Positions 8,074 through 12,199 of a DNA stretch of 64,000 bases are shown here, piece after piece. The first letter of the stretch is position 1, and every line of letters starts with the position of its first letter. The notes under the pieces were generated by a model, which had not been told where the DNA came from, did not search any database, and saw only the letters and a program-made list of their open reading frames with translations. Position numbers and translations under genes: made by a program. Origin of the DNA: Acutalibacteraceae bacterium (GTDB lineage: Bacteria; Bacillota; Clostridia; Oscillospirales; Acutalibacteraceae). Location of the stretch: positions 5,584 to 69,583 of the forward strand of contig JAZUJJ010000105.1 in the NCBI GenBank assembly GCA_045642725.1, read 5' to 3'.

Positions 8074-8312
8074 GTGTTGTTTTTCAATGCTTACGGGCAT
8101 TTTTCCGGATTTTTTGCATACTGTTTTTTTGATAAAATCCCTCAAATTTTAGTGTTAAAAAAGAAATAATGGACTAAAAATCAGAAAAATCGCCTTTTTG
8201 ACTAAAAAATCATCAATTTTGGTTTCATAATTCGTAATTAAGCTAAAAAATATATTGACAAAAGAAAAAAATTGATATAATATAATCAAGAATAGGTGAA
8301 AAGGAGACAGCA

Positions 8313-8885
8313 ATGTCAAAGGAACAAATGACCGATTCACAGATAGTTTCCCTTGTCGAAAAGGCATCCGCAGGTGATGACGGTGCCATGGCACAGCTCA
8401 TTGCCGTAATAATGCCTTTTGCAAAGGCAAAGGCCGTAAGACATAAGACCGACTCCTCAAGAATACCCGAAGAGGATCTTATTCAGGAGGGTATGATAGG
8501 CTTTCTGAGCGCGGTCAAAAGCTTTGACAGTTCAAAGGGAGTTCCTTTTGTGGCTTTTGCAAATCTCTGCATAGAGCGCAGGATTCTTTCCGTGCTTCGC
8601 AGCTATTCAAGCGACGGAAACCGTTTGCTGACCAATGCCGTTTCCATTGACGAAAATGACGGCACCGGCGGTGACCCGATAAAAAATGTTGACTCCGCCA
8701 TTGAGGTCGAGCGCATTATTTCCGTTGCAAACAGCAGCTTTTCAAAGCTTGAAAAGGATGTTTTCACCTGCCGTCTGACGGGCCTTGACCGTGCGGAAAT
8801 CGCCGCAAAGCTCGGCTGCAGCGAAAGAGCGGTTGACAATGCCCTTCAGAGAGTTAAGCGAAAGCTGAGACCTAAAATCAAGTAA
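8313..8885 (+). CDS. sigH: SigH-family RNA polymerase sigma factor (divergent)
   Basis: EDLIQEGMIG, FANLCIERRI, VDNALQRVKRKL match SigH regions 2 and 4; AGGAG RBS. Confidence 0.7.
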   Translation: MSKEQMTDSQIVSLVEKASAGDDGAMAQLIAVIMPFAKAKAVRHKTDSSRIPEEDLIQEGMIGFLSAVKSFDSSKGVPFVAFANLCIERRILSVLRSYSSDGNRLLTNAVSIDENDGTGGDPIKNVDSAIEVERIISVANSSFSKLEKDVFTCRLTGLDRAEIAAKLGCSERAVDNALQRVKRKLRPKIK

Positions 8886-8888
8886 ATG

Positions 8889-8904
8889 AAGCACTGCGGT
8901 GCTT
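8889..8904 (+). terminator. Short hairpin after sigH
   Basis: AAGCAC-TGCG-GTGCTT followed by TATATA. Confidence 0.4.
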
Positions 8905-8911
8905 TATATAT

Positions 8912-8977
8912 GCCCCCGTAGCTTAAAGCAGAGCGTTGTACATAACAAAGGTGACGGTGCGATTCCGTCCAAGGGCA
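8912..8977 (+). ncRNA. tRNA-like cloverleaf (minimised or pseudo-tRNA, central CAT)
   Basis: GCCCCCG-TA-GCTT/GAGC D-arm, TTGT-ACATA-ACAA short anticodon arm, GACGG-TGCGATT-CCGTC T-arm, CAAGGGCA; 66 nt, no encoded CCA. Confidence 0.6.
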
Positions 8978-9004
8978 AAAATTTATTCATGCGAGGTTAT
9001 AAAC

Positions 9005-9286
9005 ATGTACGAAGACAAGACTCTCATCTGCAAGGAATGCGGAAATGAATTCGTTTTCACCGCCGGTGAACAGGAATTCTATGCTGAAAAAGGCTTTGTA
9101 AATGAGCCTCAGCGTTGCAAGGCTTGCCGTGATGCACGCAAGAACGCAACCCGTGGCGAGCGTGAATGGTTTGAGGCAACTTGTGATTCCTGCGGTGGAG
9201 TTGCAAAAGTTCCCTTTAAGCCGCGTGAGGACAGACCTGTTTATTGCAGCGAATGCTTTGCAAAGAAACAGCAGGAAGAAGCATAA
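9005..9286 (+). CDS. Zinc-ribbon plus CxxC-x17-CxxC domain protein (93 aa)
   Basis: MYEDKTLICKECGNEFVFTAGEQEFYAEKGF...CKAC...CDSCG..17..CSEC; GAGG RBS supports ATG 9005 rather than 8936. Confidence 0.85.
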   Translation: MYEDKTLICKECGNEFVFTAGEQEFYAEKGFVNEPQRCKACRDARKNATRGEREWFEATCDSCGGVAKVPFKPREDRPVYCSECFAKKQQEEA

Positions 9287-9305
9287 TTCCGTCCGAACAA
9301 AAGTG

Positions 9306-9335
9306 ACCGACCCGTTTCCGGGTCGGTTTTTCTTT
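9306..9335 (+). terminator. Rho-independent terminator
   Basis: ACCGACCCG-TTTC-CGGGTCGGT then TTTTCTTT. Confidence 0.85.
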
Positions 9336-9438
9336 GGGCTGCCTCTTCATGCAAACCGGAAATATGTAAATAACATATAAATCAATCCGGAGCGGCAGAG
9401 GTTGTCTGCTATAAAATGATAAAAAATAAAAAAAAGTC

Positions 9439-9467
9439 TTTACAAAGAGAAATCTTTGTGCTATAAT
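9439..9467 (+). promoter_or_regulatory. Strong sigma-A promoter of rpsO
   Basis: TTTACA-17-TATAAT, extended TG, upstream A-tract. Confidence 0.85.
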
Positions 9468-9572: not shown

Positions 9573-9836
9573 ATGACACAGGCAGAAAAACAGGCAATCA
9601 TGAAAGAATATGCAACTCACGAGGGCGACACAGGTTCACCCGAAGTACAGATTGCTGTTCTTACCAAGAGAATCAACGACCTTAACGCTCATCTTACCGT
9701 ACACAAGAAGGATCACCACAGCCGCAGAGGCCTTCTTATGATGGTCGGTCACAGAAGAAACCTCCTTGCTTACCTTCAGAAGGTTGACATCGAGCGTTAC
9801 CGTTCAATCGTTGCAAGACTTGGTCTGCGTAAATAA
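9573..9836 (+). CDS. rpsO: 30S ribosomal protein S15
   Basis: [25 protein letters not shown]. Confidence 0.98.
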
Positions 9837-9847
9837 TTGCAAACAGA

Positions 9848-9877
9848 AAGCAGGCAGGAGGTCTCTTGCCTGCTTTT
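9848..9877 (+). terminator. Hairpin between rpsO and pnp
   Basis: AAGCAGGCAGGAG/CTCTTGCCTGCTT followed by TT. Confidence 0.75.
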
Positions 9878-10018
9878 CAAACTTTTTATTATCAACAATC
9901 CGACAGGCGAATATCGGTATTTTTAGCGGTAAATCGGGAGCAAATGAACCATTTACTTCGGATTTATTGCTAAAAGCCGTTCAGACCTGCGGAAATAAAT
10001 AAAAGAAGAGGTAAAAGT

Positions 10019-12199
10019 ATGTTTTTTGAAGCTTTCAAAAAGTATGAAACCGAAATCGCAGGCAGACCTTTTGTCGTAGAAGTCGGCAAAATGGCTCAGC
10101 TCGCAGGCGGCTCCTGCCTTGTTCGTTACGGTGAAACCAACGTTCTCTGTACCGCAACAATGGCTCCCAAGCCCCGTGAAGGCGTGGATTTCTTCCCCCT
10201 TTCCGTTGACTATGAGGAAAAGCTCTATTCAGTAGGCAGAATTCCCGGCTCATTCCAGCGCCGTGAAGGCAAGGCAAGCGAAAAGGCCACCCTTGCTTCC
10301 AGAGTTATCGACAGACCCATCCGTCCTCTTTTCCCCAAGGATATGAGAAACGATGTCGGCGTTGTAGCCACCGTTATGTCAGTTGACCCTGACTGCGAGC
10401 CCGGTATCACCGCAATGCTCGGTGTTTCCATTGCAATTTCAATTTCCGAAATTCCCTGGGACGGCCCCGTTTCCGGTGTTGTTGTAGGCCTTGTTGACGG
10501 TCAGTATGTCATCAACCCCACTCTCGAGCAGAGAGCAAAGAGCGAAATGTATGTTACCGTTGCTTCCACAAGTGACCTTGTTGCCATGATCGAAGCAGGC
10601 GCAAACGAGATTTCCAACGACGATATGTACGACGGAATCATGTTCGCTCACAAAGAAAATCAGAGAATAGTTGAGTTCATCAACAAGATTAAAGAGGAAT
10701 GCGGCAAAGAAAAGGTCGATTTCCCCTCCAACGATCCCGACCCCGAAATGTATGAGGCTATCAAGGACTTCGCCATTGAGGATATCCGTGCCGCTCTTGA
10801 CACAGATGACAAGAGAATCCGTGACGACAGACTTAAGCCTGTTTATGATAAGGTTCACGAGAAGTTCGACGAGATTTACCCCGAAATGGAAGTAAAAATC
10901 GAAGAATGTCTTTACAAGGTTCAGAAGTATGTTGTCCGCCGCTGGCTTCTTGATGACGGCAAGCGTGTTGACGGCAGAGGAATCAACGAAATCCGTCCTC
11001 TTAATGCCGAAGTTGACCTTCTTGACAGAGTTCACGGCTCAGGTATGTTCACAAGAGGTCAGACCCAGGTTCTTTCCGTAACCACACTCGGCCCCATGAG
11101 CGATGCACAGCTTCTTGACGGCCTTGATGAAGAAGAATCCAAGAGATATATCCATCATTATAATTTCCCCTCATACTCCGTTGGTGAAACAAAGCCCAGC
11201 AGAGGCCCCGGCAGAAGAGAAATCGGCCACGGCGCACTTGCAGAGCGTTCACTTGTTCCCGTTCTTCCTTCAGTTGAAGAGTTCCCCTATACCATCAGAG
11301 TAGTTTCCGAGGTTCTTTCCTCCAACGGTTCCACCTCTCAGGGCTCAGTCTGCGGCTCAACCCTTTCACTTATGGCTGCCGGCGTTCCCATCAAGGCTCC
11401 CGTTGCAGGTATTTCCTGCGGACTTATCACCGAGGGCGACCGCTTCATGACCATGGTTGACATTCAGGGTCTTGAAGACTTCTTCGGCGATATGGACTTT
11501 AAGGTTGCAGGTACAAAGAAGGGTATCACCTCCATTCAGATGGACCTTAAGGTACACGGCCTTACCCCCGCTATCATCAGAGAAGCTCTTGAAAAGACAT
11601 ATAAAGCACGCTGCTACATCATTGATGAAATCATGACTCCCGTTATTGCCGAGCCTCGCAAGGAGCTTTCAAAGTGGGCTCCCAAGATGCTTACCACCAA
11701 GATTGACCCCGAAAAGATCGGTGATGTTATCGGCAAGCAGGGCAAGGTCATTCAGAAGATATGTGCCGAGTGCGACTGCAAGATCGATGTTCAGGAAGAC
11801 GGTAATGTATTCATTTCCTCTACTGATATTGAAAATGCAAAGAGAGCAATCTTTATTGTTGAAACCATTGCCAACGGTCCCGAAGTCGGTTCAATTTACA
11901 ACGGTGTTGTTACCCGTCTTATGAGCTTCGGTGCTTTCGTTGAGATAGCTCCCGGTGTTGAAGGTATGGTTCACATCAGCCAGCTTGATGTCAAGAGAAC
12001 CGAAAAGGTTGAGGATGTTGTTGCCGTCGGTGACAGCGTAATGGTTAAGGTTCTTCCCAAGGATGACCAGGGCAGACTTAATTTCTCACGCCGCGAAGCT
12101 CTTATTGAAGTAAAGGGTCTTGTTCCCGAAAATACTGTTTCCGATGCACCCCGCAAGGAATTCAGAGGCAACAGAAGAGCTCCCAAGCATAATGACTGA
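10019..12199 (+). CDS. pnp: Polyribonucleotide nucleotidyltransferase (PNPase)
   Basis: DFFPLSVDYEE, RREIGHGALAER, DMDFKVAGT, KH and S1 domains. Confidence 0.98.
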   Translation: MFFEAFKKYETEIAGRPFVVEVGKMAQLAGGSCLVRYGETNVLCTATMAPKPREGVDFFPLSVDYEEKLYSVGRIPGSFQRREGKASEKATLASRVIDRPIRPLFPKDMRNDVGVVATVMSVDPDCEPGITAMLGVSIAISISEIPWDGPVSGVVVGLVDGQYVINPTLEQRAKSEMYVTVASTSDLVAMIEAGANEISNDDMYDGIMFAHKENQRIVEFINKIKEECGKEKVDFPSNDPDPEMYEAIKDFAIEDIRAALDTDDKRIRDDRLKPVYDKVHEKFDEIYPEMEVKIEECLYKVQKYVVRRWLLDDGKRVDGRGINEIRPLNAEVDLLDRVHGSGMFTRGQTQVLSVTTLGPMSDAQLLDGLDEEESKRYIHHYNFPSYSVGETKPSRGPGRREIGHGALAERSLVPVLPSVEEFPYTIRVVSEVLSSNGSTSQGSVCGSTLSLMAAGVPIKAPVAGISCGLITEGDRFMTMVDIQGLEDFFGDMDFKVAGTKKGITSIQMDLKVHGLTPAIIREALEKTYKARCYIIDEIMTPVIAEPRKELSKWAPKMLTTKIDPEKIGDVIGKQGKVIQKICAECDCKIDVQEDGNVFISSTDIENAKRAIFIVETIANGPEVGSIYNGVVTRLMSFGAFVEIAPGVEGMVHISQLDVKRTEKVEDVVAVGDSVMVKVLPKDDQGRLNFSRREALIEVKGLVPENTVSDAPRKEFRGNRRAPKHND

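What the first reader, a model, noticed from the sequence alone, without database searches (positions are those of the whole stretch)
8912..8977. Minimised tRNA mimic in the leader of a zinc-ribbon gene
Seen: a 66-nt cloverleaf with an intact 5-bp T-stem and 4-bp D-stem. The D-loop is 6 nt and lacks GG, the T-loop is TGCGATT (G in place of psi55), the anticodon arm is shortened to 13 nt around CAT, the acceptor stem has two C.A mismatches, and there is no CCA. It ends 28 nt before the ATG of the CxxC zinc-ribbon gene. Inference: the D-loop and T-loop changes look matched rather than random, so this may be a cis-regulatory or RNase P/Z processing element, or a small RNA, rather than a decayed tRNA-Met.
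Basis: partly seen in the sequence, partly recalled or inferred. Interest (0 to 1): 0.6.

Follow-up and report, generated by a model that had tools for sequence, protein, structure and literature searches.

The report
Conserved tRNA-shaped leader before zinc-ribbon gene
A 66-base RNA that keeps the folded body of a tRNA but cannot decode sits between a sigH-like gene and a small zinc-ribbon gene in many gut Clostridia. It is kept by selection, most likely as a cutting site for the tRNA-trimming enzyme RNase P, which would free and cap the zinc-ribbon message.

Summary
Window 8912-8977 (+) is a cloverleaf that scores 39.7 bits on Rfam tRNA (cut-off 29), while ARAGORN rejects it.

It is not a decayed tRNA:
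- The same element lies between a sigH-like gene and the zf_Tbcl zinc-ribbon gene in most Acutalibacteraceae sampled and in many other families of the order. Reduced forms occur in other Clostridia orders.
- Covariation supports all four stems: 13 of 20 pairs have changes on both sides, and 0 of 500 shuffles reach the observed score.
- The anticodon arm is always shrunken and variable, and no CCA is encoded.

The evidence points to RNase P:
- The four bases before G1 (AUAU) match the leader of the genome's own 38 tRNAs and the published optimum A(-2)U(-1)/G+1.
- The acceptor/T-arm stack and the T-loop U54/A58 are invariant.
- The sigH stop codon often lies only 2-10 nt upstream, which forces co-transcription.
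- RNase P RNA is present. RNase Z was not found here, and matched at or near its cut-off in only 4 of 101 genomes of the order.

Best reading (about 0.55): RNase P separates the zinc-ribbon mRNA from the sigH message and leaves a structured 5' end. Cleavage is inferred, not shown.

I found no paper describing this element. This scan met it twice before on other DNA. The isotype of origin looks like tRNA-Arg rather than Met or Thr.

The parts
8255..8283 (+). Sigma-70-type promoter-like site upstream of the sigH-like gene (TTGACA-17-TAATAT). It is the only such + strand site upstream of the element.
8313..8885 (+). sigH-like sigma factor gene (190 aa). It is a divergent SigH: best NCBIfam hit spore_sigH at 86 bits, below the cut-off of 295. 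It lies upstream in the same orientation in nearly all loci that carry the element.
8889..8904 (+). Hairpin AAGCAC-UGCG-GUGCUU directly after the sigH stop codon. It is followed by UAUAUAU rather than a U-run, so the scan does not call it a + strand terminator. If RNase P cuts before G1, this hairpin would sit near the 3' end of the sigH message.
8907..8911 (+). 5' leader UAUAU (positions -5 to -1). Across 54 copies: A(-4) in 46, U(-3) in 43, A(-2) in 50, U(-1) in 49. The 38 real tRNA genes of this genome show the same signature.
8912..8977 (+). tRNA-like element. It comprises acceptor strands 8912-8918/8970-8976, D-arm 8921-8934, shrunken anticodon arm 8936-8948, variable loop 8949-8952, T-arm 8953-8969 and discriminator A at 8977. 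No CCA is encoded.
8978..8992 (+). A/U-rich unstructured linker. Positions 74-76 are AAA in more than 90% of copies. Linker length varies among relatives, and no conserved pairing with the element or the ribosome-binding site was found.
8993..8996 (+). Shine-Dalgarno GAGG. It lies within the context (A)AGCGAGGU, which is conserved before this gene across Clostridia whatever leader type precedes it.
9005..9286 (+). Zinc-ribbon gene (93 aa; Pfam zf_Tbcl PF13451 plus zf_Tbcl_2 PF23477; NCBIfam CxxC-x17-CxxC). It is 60-88% identical across Clostridia and its function is unknown.
9305..9335 (+). Strong intrinsic terminator after the zinc-ribbon gene (10-bp stem plus a T-run). It ends the sigH / element / zinc-ribbon unit. 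rpsO downstream has its own promoter-like site at 9439-9467.

Best explanation
The element is a tRNA-derived processing signal inside a two-gene transcript (sigH-like gene, element, zinc-ribbon gene).

Inferred steps:
1. Transcription starts upstream, either at the sigH promoter or inside sigH, and runs through the element.
2. The element folds into a tRNA-like L-shape that has lost the decoding loop.
3. RNase P recognises the acceptor/T-arm stack and the tRNA-type A(-2)U(-1)/G+1 junction, and cuts just before G1 (8912).
4. This separates the sigH message from the zinc-ribbon message. The zinc-ribbon message then begins with a base-paired, structured 5' end that should resist 5' decay.
5. Because RNase Z is not found and no CCA is encoded, the element probably stays attached as a 5' cap. 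Release by another endonuclease in the AAA-rich linker is not excluded.

Shown here: conservation, structure, the tRNA-type leader, co-transcription geometry and enzyme presence or absence.
Inferred: the cleavage itself, the stabilising effect and the fate of the 66-nt piece.
For: (1) The element lies in the same slot (sigH-like gene, element, zinc-ribbon gene) in about 27 of 30 genera of the family sampled, in all 29 top hits from other genomes of the order, and in 50 (strong) plus 8 (weak) of 80 further species.

(2) Covariation supports the cloverleaf, including the 5' acceptor strand. 87% of cells are paired and 13 of 20 pairs have changes on both sides. The covariation score is 0.214 against 0.04-0.06 for slid partners, and 0 of 500 shuffles reach it. 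The RNA therefore starts upstream of G1.

(3) The leader A(-4)U(-3)A(-2)U(-1) is conserved in 43-50 of 54 copies. It matches the leader of the genome's 38 real tRNAs, where U(-1) occurs in 33, A(-2) in 24, U(-3) in 25 and A(-4) in 23. It also matches the published optimum A(-2)U(-1)/G+1 for bacterial RNase P (PMC10731613).

(4) The parts RNase P reads are the most constant: G1-C72 and the top four acceptor pairs, the 7+5 stack, G52-C62 and G53-C61 (53/53), and U54 and A58 (54/54). The anticodon arm, which RNase P ignores, varies from 8 to 41 nt.

(5) The sigH stop codon lies 2-35 nt before G1 in most loci, and only 4-5 nt before it in several (TGA UAUAU G). That leaves no room for a promoter or terminator. 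The window has only 26 nt there and no promoter-like site.

(6) Copies without sigH upstream (L010, L014) have a canonical TTGACA-17-TAnnnT promoter about 20 nt before G1, like a tRNA gene.

(7) In relatives the element decays in the order expected for an RNase P substrate. It goes from a full cloverleaf, to an acceptor plus T-arm minihelix, to a bare acceptor-like hairpin. In the reduced forms read (for example L108, L137) an A/U leader and an A-rich trailer remain.

(8) In other orders the same slot holds a real tRNA-Gly(CCC), spaced as in a tRNA cluster.

(9) RNase P RNA class A is present at 275.6 bits.
Against: - No cleavage data exist. The public RNA runs that hold this stretch are kept as contigs of relatives and show no ends.
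- The element lacks the 3' RCCA that class A RNase P pairs with, although every real tRNA of this genome encodes it.
- In this family the D-loop/T-loop elbow pair (G18G19 with U55C56) is lost. That removes a contact of the RNase P specificity domain.
- The acceptor stem carries a conserved internal mismatch: pair 5-68 is unpaired in 42 of 53 distinct copies.
- The near-invariant D-arm and core (U8, A9, A14, A21-G26, A44-G46) are more than a minimal RNase P substrate needs. Something else may read the fold.
- 16 of 69 sigH-linked loci in the family sample do without a recognisable element.
Confidence: 0.55

Rival explanations
1. The element is a protein-binding tRNA mimic that regulates the zinc-ribbon gene. 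The zinc-ribbon protein itself, or another tRNA-binding protein, would bind the L-shaped leader and tune translation or decay. This would resemble operators that mimic a protein's RNA ligand.
For: The D-arm and tertiary core are conserved almost base for base over a whole order, more than a cleavage signal needs. The acceptor mismatch at pair 5-68 is kept. The gene product is a two-module zinc protein of unknown function that could bind nucleic acid. In other families a different structured RNA (raiA) sits in the same place before the same gene.
Against: The protein is 60-88% identical across Clostridia, but the leader differs between lineages: tRNA-like, real tRNA, raiA RNA, plain promoter, or nothing. 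The protein therefore does not need this leader. The element lies 27 nt from the ATG, and no conserved pairing or overlap with the ribosome-binding site was found. The anticodon arm, which is the part mimicked in E. coli thrS, is the least conserved part. No structural or sequence relative points to tRNA binding.
Confidence: 0.13
2. The element is a small RNA in its own right. A roughly 66-nt tRNA-shaped RNA would be cut out at both ends and act in trans, with the zinc-ribbon gene merely sharing its promoter.
For: Sequence conservation is as high as for a real tRNA. The trailer A74-A76 is conserved and could mark a second cut. The gene also follows other stable RNAs, tRNA-Gly and raiA, in other lineages.
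Against: RNase Z is not found, no CCA is encoded, and no terminator lies between the element and the gene. The element is always immediately before this one gene and is single-copy. In many relatives it shrinks to a minihelix or hairpin, which a trans-acting RNA with a specific partner would not tolerate.
Confidence: 0.1
3. The element is only a 5' structure that stabilises the mRNA or insulates it from upstream translation. RNase P plays no part, and the tRNA shape is historical.
For: In some relatives a bare hairpin occupies the slot. Structured 5' ends are known to stabilise mRNAs in Firmicutes (my own knowledge, not tested here).
Against: This does not explain the tRNA-type AUAU leader immediately before G1, which is conserved even where it overlaps the sigH stop codon. 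It does not explain the invariant T-loop U54/A58. It also needs a 5' end at G1, and with sigH only 2-10 nt upstream that end can only come from cleavage.
Confidence: 0.1
4. The element is a neutral, decaying tRNA pseudogene left between two genes.
For: It has lost the anticodon loop, the GG/UUC elbow and the CCA. ARAGORN rejects it.
Against: It is conserved across more than 100 species-level genomes in many families, with compensatory changes that keep the stems. The zinc-ribbon gene is 60-88% identical over the same span while the sigH-like neighbour has drifted to 30-40%.
Confidence: 0.02

Closest known systems
t-elements of plant mitochondria (Forner et al. 2007, PMC1920247) and the tRNA punctuation of mitochondrial transcripts
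   Same: They are tRNA-like folds that no longer decode and lie next to protein-coding sequence. The tRNA end-processing enzymes use them to define mRNA ends.
   Different: Those are organellar and use both RNase P and RNase Z. This element is on a bacterial chromosome, is conserved across an order, lies in a lineage where RNase Z was not found, and is tied to one particular gene pair.
MALAT1 mascRNA and MEN-beta tRNA-like structures (Rfam RF01684, same clan as tRNA)
   Same: Both are tRNA-like with a reduced anticodon arm, embedded in a longer transcript. RNase P cleavage 5' of the mimic separates two products.
   Different: Those are eukaryotic, RNase Z and the CCA-adding enzyme release the small RNA, and the upstream product is the functional one. 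Here the downstream mRNA is the likely beneficiary, and release of the small RNA is doubtful.
Bacterial tRNA-mRNA co-transcripts and RNase P cleavage of operon mRNAs (E. coli thrU-tyrU-glyT-thrT-tufB; the his operon; reviewed in PMC10731613)
   Same: In both, a protein gene is transcribed behind tRNA-shaped RNA and RNase P acts on the mRNA precursor. In other Clostridia orders the zinc-ribbon gene really does follow a functional tRNA-Gly(CCC).
   Different: In those cases the tRNA is a working tRNA, or the site is a simple hairpin. Here a dedicated tRNA-shaped RNA that cannot decode is kept by selection.
E. coli thrS operator and other tRNA-mimic regulatory leaders
   Same: Both place a tRNA-like shape in an mRNA leader.
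   Different: The thrS operator mimics the anticodon arm and overlaps the ribosome-binding site. Here the anticodon arm is the degenerate part and the ribosome-binding site is free.

Membership tests
Functional decoding tRNA (Rfam RF00005) | Cloverleaf scoring above the family's gathering score | tested here: met
   39.7 bits against 29. It is the lowest of 38 hits in the genome.
Functional decoding tRNA (Rfam RF00005) | A 5-bp anticodon stem with a 7-nt loop carrying U33 and an anticodon | tested here: not met
   The stem is 4 bp and the loop 5 nt in the window. The arm is 8-16 nt in 52 of 54 copies, and 20 and 41 nt in the other two. The loop sequence is not conserved. ARAGORN finds no tRNA.
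Functional decoding tRNA (Rfam RF00005) | Elbow pairs G18-U55 and G19-C56 | tested here: not met
   The window's D-loop is AAAGCA and its T-loop is UGCGAUU. GG is present in only 8 of 54 copies.
Functional decoding tRNA (Rfam RF00005) | A 3' CCA, as encoded in all tRNA genes of this genome | tested here: not met
   All 38 real tRNAs end in CCA. The element has A73 followed by AAA.
Bacterial RNase P substrate | Acceptor plus T-stem stack of 12 pairs, closed by a T-loop | tested here: met
   The stack is 7+5 positions. G1-C72, pairs 2-4, G52-C62 and G53-C61 are near-invariant or invariant, with covariation at pairs 2-71, 4-69, 7-66, 49-65 and 51-63. U54 and A58 are present in 54 of 54 copies. 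Pairs 5-68 and 6-67 are often mismatched.
Bacterial RNase P substrate | Favourable cleavage-site context U(-1), A(-2), G(+1) | tested here: met
   U(-1) in 49 of 54 copies and A(-2) in 50 of 54. G(+1) is invariant in the 24-sequence alignments and pairs with position 72 in 48 of 53 distinct copies. The real tRNAs of the genome show the same signature. The published optimum is in PMC10731613.
Bacterial RNase P substrate | A 3' RCCA that pairs with loop L15 of RNase P RNA | tested here: not met
   The trailer is AAAA(U).
Bacterial RNase P substrate | The enzyme is present in the organism | tested here: met
   RNase P RNA class A, 275.6 bits.
Bacterial RNase P substrate | Cleavage at -1/+1 observed | not testable with these tools
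   Only contigs of relatives were available from RNA runs, and they show no ends.
RNase Z substrate (CCA-less tRNA precursor) | RNase Z is encoded in the genome | tested here: not met
   TIGR02651 gives at best 44 bits against a cut-off of 293 in this 97.5%-complete genome. It matched at or near the cut-off in only 4 of 101 genomes of the order.
Known cis-regulatory RNA families (T-box, riboswitches, ribosomal leaders) | A match to a curated Rfam model other than tRNA | tested here: not met
   A permissive scan of 8700-9400 gave only the tRNA hit above threshold.
Anticodon-arm operator of the thrS type | A conserved mimic of an anticodon arm overlapping the ribosome-binding site | tested here: not met
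   The anticodon arm is variable. No conserved pairing or overlap with the Shine-Dalgarno sequence was found.

The most novel reading that the evidence does not exclude
The zinc-ribbon protein may be an RNA-binding partner of the structured RNA encoded just before its gene. That RNA is the tRNA-like element in Oscillospirales and the orphan raiA RNA in other Clostridia families. If so, the element would be one half of an undescribed small ribonucleoprotein or autoregulatory pair, and the protein would be a candidate for the missing protein partner of raiA RNA.
Probability: 0.1. Interest if true: 0.85.

Novelty: new variant of a known kind. Interest (0 to 1): 0.62.

Why it matters
If RNase P cuts here, this would be a widespread bacterial counterpart of the mitochondrial t-element and of mascRNA: a tRNA body kept purely as a processing and capping signal for an mRNA.

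- It comes with a natural series of reduced forms (cloverleaf, minihelix, hairpin). That series shows what the enzyme needs in vivo in a lineage that lacks RNase Z and encodes CCA in the tRNA genes checked.
- It would add a defined, testable mRNA substrate to the short list known for bacterial RNase P.
- It would explain how a low-level sigma factor gene and a highly conserved small protein gene can share one transcript yet be expressed differently.
- It warns annotators that Rfam's tRNA model picks up these elements above its threshold.
- It draws attention to an abundant, uncharacterised zinc protein of gut Clostridia.

Tried and rejected
- **Conserved ATAT as a -10 promoter box.** Rejected. 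No hexamer register keeps both A at position 2 and T at position 6. Compensatory changes in the acceptor stem show the 5' strand is RNA. Real tRNAs carry the same four bases.
- **Expression data.** The four runs found hold only contigs, mostly from relatives. They cover the zinc-ribbon coding region heavily but show no ends, so nothing can be said about cleavage.
- **RNase Z processing.** Rejected because the enzyme was not found.
Of the 20 best real-tRNA matches to the element's model, 13 are tRNA-Arg CCG/CCU, 4 Phe, and one each Thr, Asp and Gly. The alignment shows the shared GAGCGUUGG...CCAAAGGU of tRNA-Arg CCG. The origin remains uncertain.
- **Sequestration of the ribosome-binding site by the element.** RNAalifold on the whole leader finds no such pairing.
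- **Function of the protein.** Pfam and NCBIfam give only zinc-domain names. The PDB sequence search, Foldseek on a confident model (pLDDT 89) and the ESM Atlas gave nothing informative.
- **Literature.** No paper was found on a bacterial tRNA-like leader of this gene.
- **raiA RNA in this genome.** Not found, but the control genomes did not ring either, so the result is uninformative.

Full report
**1. What is there**

It has a 7-position acceptor stem with C.A mismatches at 5-68 and 6-67, and a 4-bp D-stem with a 6-nt loop lacking GG. The anticodon arm is 13 nt, the variable loop 4 nt, and the T-stem 5 bp with loop UGCGAUU. The discriminator is A and no CCA is encoded. The ATG of the next gene is at 9005.

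Rfam's tRNA model scores it 39.7 bits (gathering score 29, E 7.7e-7). ARAGORN finds no tRNA anywhere in the window. The genome (2.65 Mb, 97.5% complete) has 38 ordinary tRNAs by ARAGORN. RF00005 also gives 38 hits, of which this element is the lowest and the only one at a place where ARAGORN called no tRNA. The element is single-copy. Its folding energy alone is unremarkable (z -0.74).

**2. Context**

Upstream lies a 190-aa sigma factor gene (8313-8885) that resembles SigH but falls far below the SigH cut-off. Downstream lies a 93-aa protein with two zinc modules (Pfam zf_Tbcl and zf_Tbcl_2; NCBIfam CxxC-x17-CxxC).

The only sigma-70-like + strand site upstream is at 8255-8283, before the sigma gene. 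A strong terminator follows the zinc-ribbon gene at 9305-9328. rpsO and pnp further on have their own promoter-like site.

Between the sigma stop codon (8883-8885) and G1 (8912) there are 26 nt. These form a hairpin followed by UAUAUAU, which the scan does not call a + strand terminator.

**3. Conservation**

- The zinc-ribbon gene was found in 112 of 120 other genomes sampled from the family, one per genus.
- In about 27 of 30 loci fetched, the 140 nt upstream carries the same element.
- A covariance model built from 24 copies finds it in many families of the order. All 29 top hits from other genomes lie just upstream of the zinc-ribbon gene, and a sigH-like gene was detected upstream in 25 of them.
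- Record titles place the family as Acutalibacteraceae and relatives as Oscillospiraceae/Ruminococcaceae.
- In 80 further species, 50 have a strong hit and 8 a weak one at the same distance from the ATG. These include the cultured Faecalispora sporosphaeroides DSM 1294.

**4. Structure**

On a 54-copy alignment fitted to the model, 87% of cells are paired and 13 of 20 pairs have changes on both sides. The covariation score is 0.214 against 0.04-0.06 when partners are slid, and no shuffle of 500 reaches it. The alignment is fitted to the structure, which favours it. Even so, clear compensatory changes are visible by eye:

- acceptor pairs 2-71 (C-G to A-U), 4-69 (C-G to G-C) and 7-66 (G-C to A-U or U-A)
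- D-stem pair 11-24 (C-G to U-A)
- anticodon stem UUG/CAA to CAG/CUG
- T-stem CGG/CCG to UGG/CCA

Because the 5' acceptor strand covaries with the 3' strand, it is part of the RNA.

Pair 5-68 is unpaired in 42 of 53 distinct copies, and pair 50-64 in 25. U54 and A58 are invariant. Position 55 is G in 36 copies, U in 15 and C in 3. The anticodon arm is 8-16 nt in all but two copies. The tertiary-core positions U8, A9, A14, A21-G26 and A44-G46 are near-invariant, so an L-shaped fold is probably kept.

**5. Signs of RNase P**

- The four bases before G1 are A, U, A, U in 46, 43, 50 and 49 of 54 copies.
- The genome's own tRNA genes show the same pattern at -4 to -1 (23, 25, 24 and 33 of 38), while positions further upstream are unpatterned.
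- A review of bacterial RNase P specificity names A(-2)U(-1)/G(+1), a 12-pair acceptor/T stack, the T-loop and the 3' RCCA as the optimum (PMC10731613). The element has all of these except RCCA.
- RNase P RNA class A is present.
- RNase Z is not found in this genome and matched at or near its cut-off in only 4 of 101 genomes of the order. This fits the fact that all 38 tRNA genes here encode CCA.

A canonical 3' cut after the discriminator is therefore unlikely, and the element probably remains on the mRNA.

**6. Co-transcription**

In most of the 54 loci the upstream ORF ends 2-35 nt before G1. In several it ends only 4-5 nt before G1, so the stop codon runs into the leader as TGA UAUAU G. 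No promoter or terminator fits there.

Two copies that lack an upstream sigH (L010, L014) have a textbook TTGACA-17-TAnnnT promoter ending 20-23 nt before G1, as a tRNA gene would. Loci where the gene has moved away and lost the element (L020, L175, L181) have a plain promoter.

**7. A series of reduced forms**

Within the family and in other orders the slot between sigH and the gene holds progressively smaller derivatives:

- cloverleaves with a replaced D-arm
- acceptor plus T-arm minihelices (L104, L108, L141)
- bare acceptor-like hairpins (L137, L138)
- nothing at all (L074)

In the reduced forms read (for example L108, L137) an A/U leader and an A-rich trailer remain. In four loci of other orders a genuine tRNA-Gly(CCC) sits there. 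It is followed at tRNA-cluster spacing by a tRNA-like copy (L076, L078), a minihelix (L072) or a hairpin (L080).

Among 40 class-level loci, tRNA, tRNA-like or reduced forms appear only where sigH is upstream. None of the 21 loci without sigH has one. Inside the family the link is looser. These genomes are related to one another, so the counts are descriptive.

**8. What it is not**

- No other Rfam family matches.
- No conserved pairing links the element or linker to the ribosome-binding site.
- The Shine-Dalgarno context AAGYGAGG is conserved before this gene across Clostridia whatever the leader, so it belongs to the gene and not to the element.
- The CAU in the window's loop is not conserved.
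- The real tRNAs that score best on the element's model are mostly tRNA-Arg CCG/CCU (13 of 20), then Phe. An alignment shows that tRNA-Arg CCG shares GAGCGUUGG...CCAAAGGU. An Arg-like ancestor is the best guess, not Met or Thr, but this is weak.

**9. The protein**

It is 60-88% identical across Clostridia. The model is confident (pLDDT 89) and shows two small zinc modules, each a beta-hairpin followed by helices. It has no informative relative in the PDB or the ESM Atlas. A paper on Methanosarcina small proteins shows that CxxC-x17-CxxC proteins bind zinc and speculates about a role in transcription (PMC12704099). The function remains unknown.

**10. Mechanism**

The best reading (about 0.55) is a tRNA-derived punctuation signal. 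RNase P would cut before G1, detaching the zinc-ribbon mRNA from the sigH message. The mRNA would then carry a base-paired 5' monophosphate end that should slow 5' decay. The sigH message would end just after its hairpin.

Against this reading are the missing RCCA, the lost elbow pair in this family, the conserved acceptor mismatch, and a core that is more conserved than a cleavage signal needs. Rivals are a protein-binding mimic (0.13), a released small RNA (0.10), a stabiliser without RNase P (0.10) and neutral decay (0.02).

**11. Novelty**

I found no description in the paper library. The nearest printed analogues are plant mitochondrial t-elements (PMC1920247) and mascRNA.

This scan met the same element twice before on other genomes: e1-5295123 and e1-5275704. 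My tests agree with their processing and cap reading. They add the tRNA-type leader, the absence of RNase Z, the stop-codon overlap and the reduction series. They do not support the tRNA-Thr origin.

Noticed in passing
L082:654-863, L084:523-861, L087:118-393, L088:495-697(-); L209 (G454): In other Clostridia families the orthologous zinc-ribbon gene is directly preceded by a raiA motif RNA (Rfam RF03072, 163-183 bits). The RNA ends about 37 nt before the ATG in three of the four loci. In G454 the gene order is recD2-like helicase, comFC-like gene, raiA RNA, zinc-ribbon gene, amino-acid ABC transporter. The two raiA/ModT papers searched for 'zinc' (PMC10861870, PMC11706538) returned no mention of this neighbour.
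   Followed up: partly
L072:451-524(-), L076:721-794, L078:712-785, L080:428-501(-): In four loci of other orders a genuine tRNA-Gly(CCC) lies between the sigH-like gene and the zinc-ribbon gene. It is followed by a second, degenerate tRNA-like copy (L076, L078), a minihelix (L072) or a bare hairpin (L080).
   Followed up: partly
whole genome G000 and 100 genomes of the order: All 38 tRNA genes of this genome encode CCA. RNase Z (TIGR02651) was not found here and matched at or near its cut-off in only 4 of 101 genomes of the order.
   Followed up: partly
window 8313-8885 versus 9005-9286: The sigH-like gene evolves fast (26-42% identity among relatives, and far below the SigH equivalog cut-off). 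The adjacent zinc-ribbon gene stays about 80% identical. The pair is syntenic across much of the class Clostridia.
   Followed up: partly
window 9032-9153: Contigs from three animal-gut metatranscriptomes pile up on the zinc-ribbon coding region, with summed word depth up to about 12,000. Most are from relatives. Summed contig depth is a poor measure of expression, so this was noted only and no habitat or expression level is claimed.
   Followed up: no
L021:1799-1901(-): One copy of the element carries a 41-nt anticodon arm with an extra GC-rich hairpin, where other copies have 8-16 nt. The rest of the cloverleaf is intact and its acceptor stem is fully paired.
   Followed up: no
L010:1331-1500: One orthologue has an insertion rich in Ser, Asn, Gly and Tyr right after the start of the zinc-ribbon protein. 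Its element is driven by its own extended -10 promoter instead of lying behind sigH.
   Followed up: no
window 9439-9467 and 9573-12199: rpsO and pnp follow, with a near-consensus promoter-like site (TTTACA-17-TATAAT with TG) about 100 nt before rpsO. They form a separate unit from the element.
   Followed up: no
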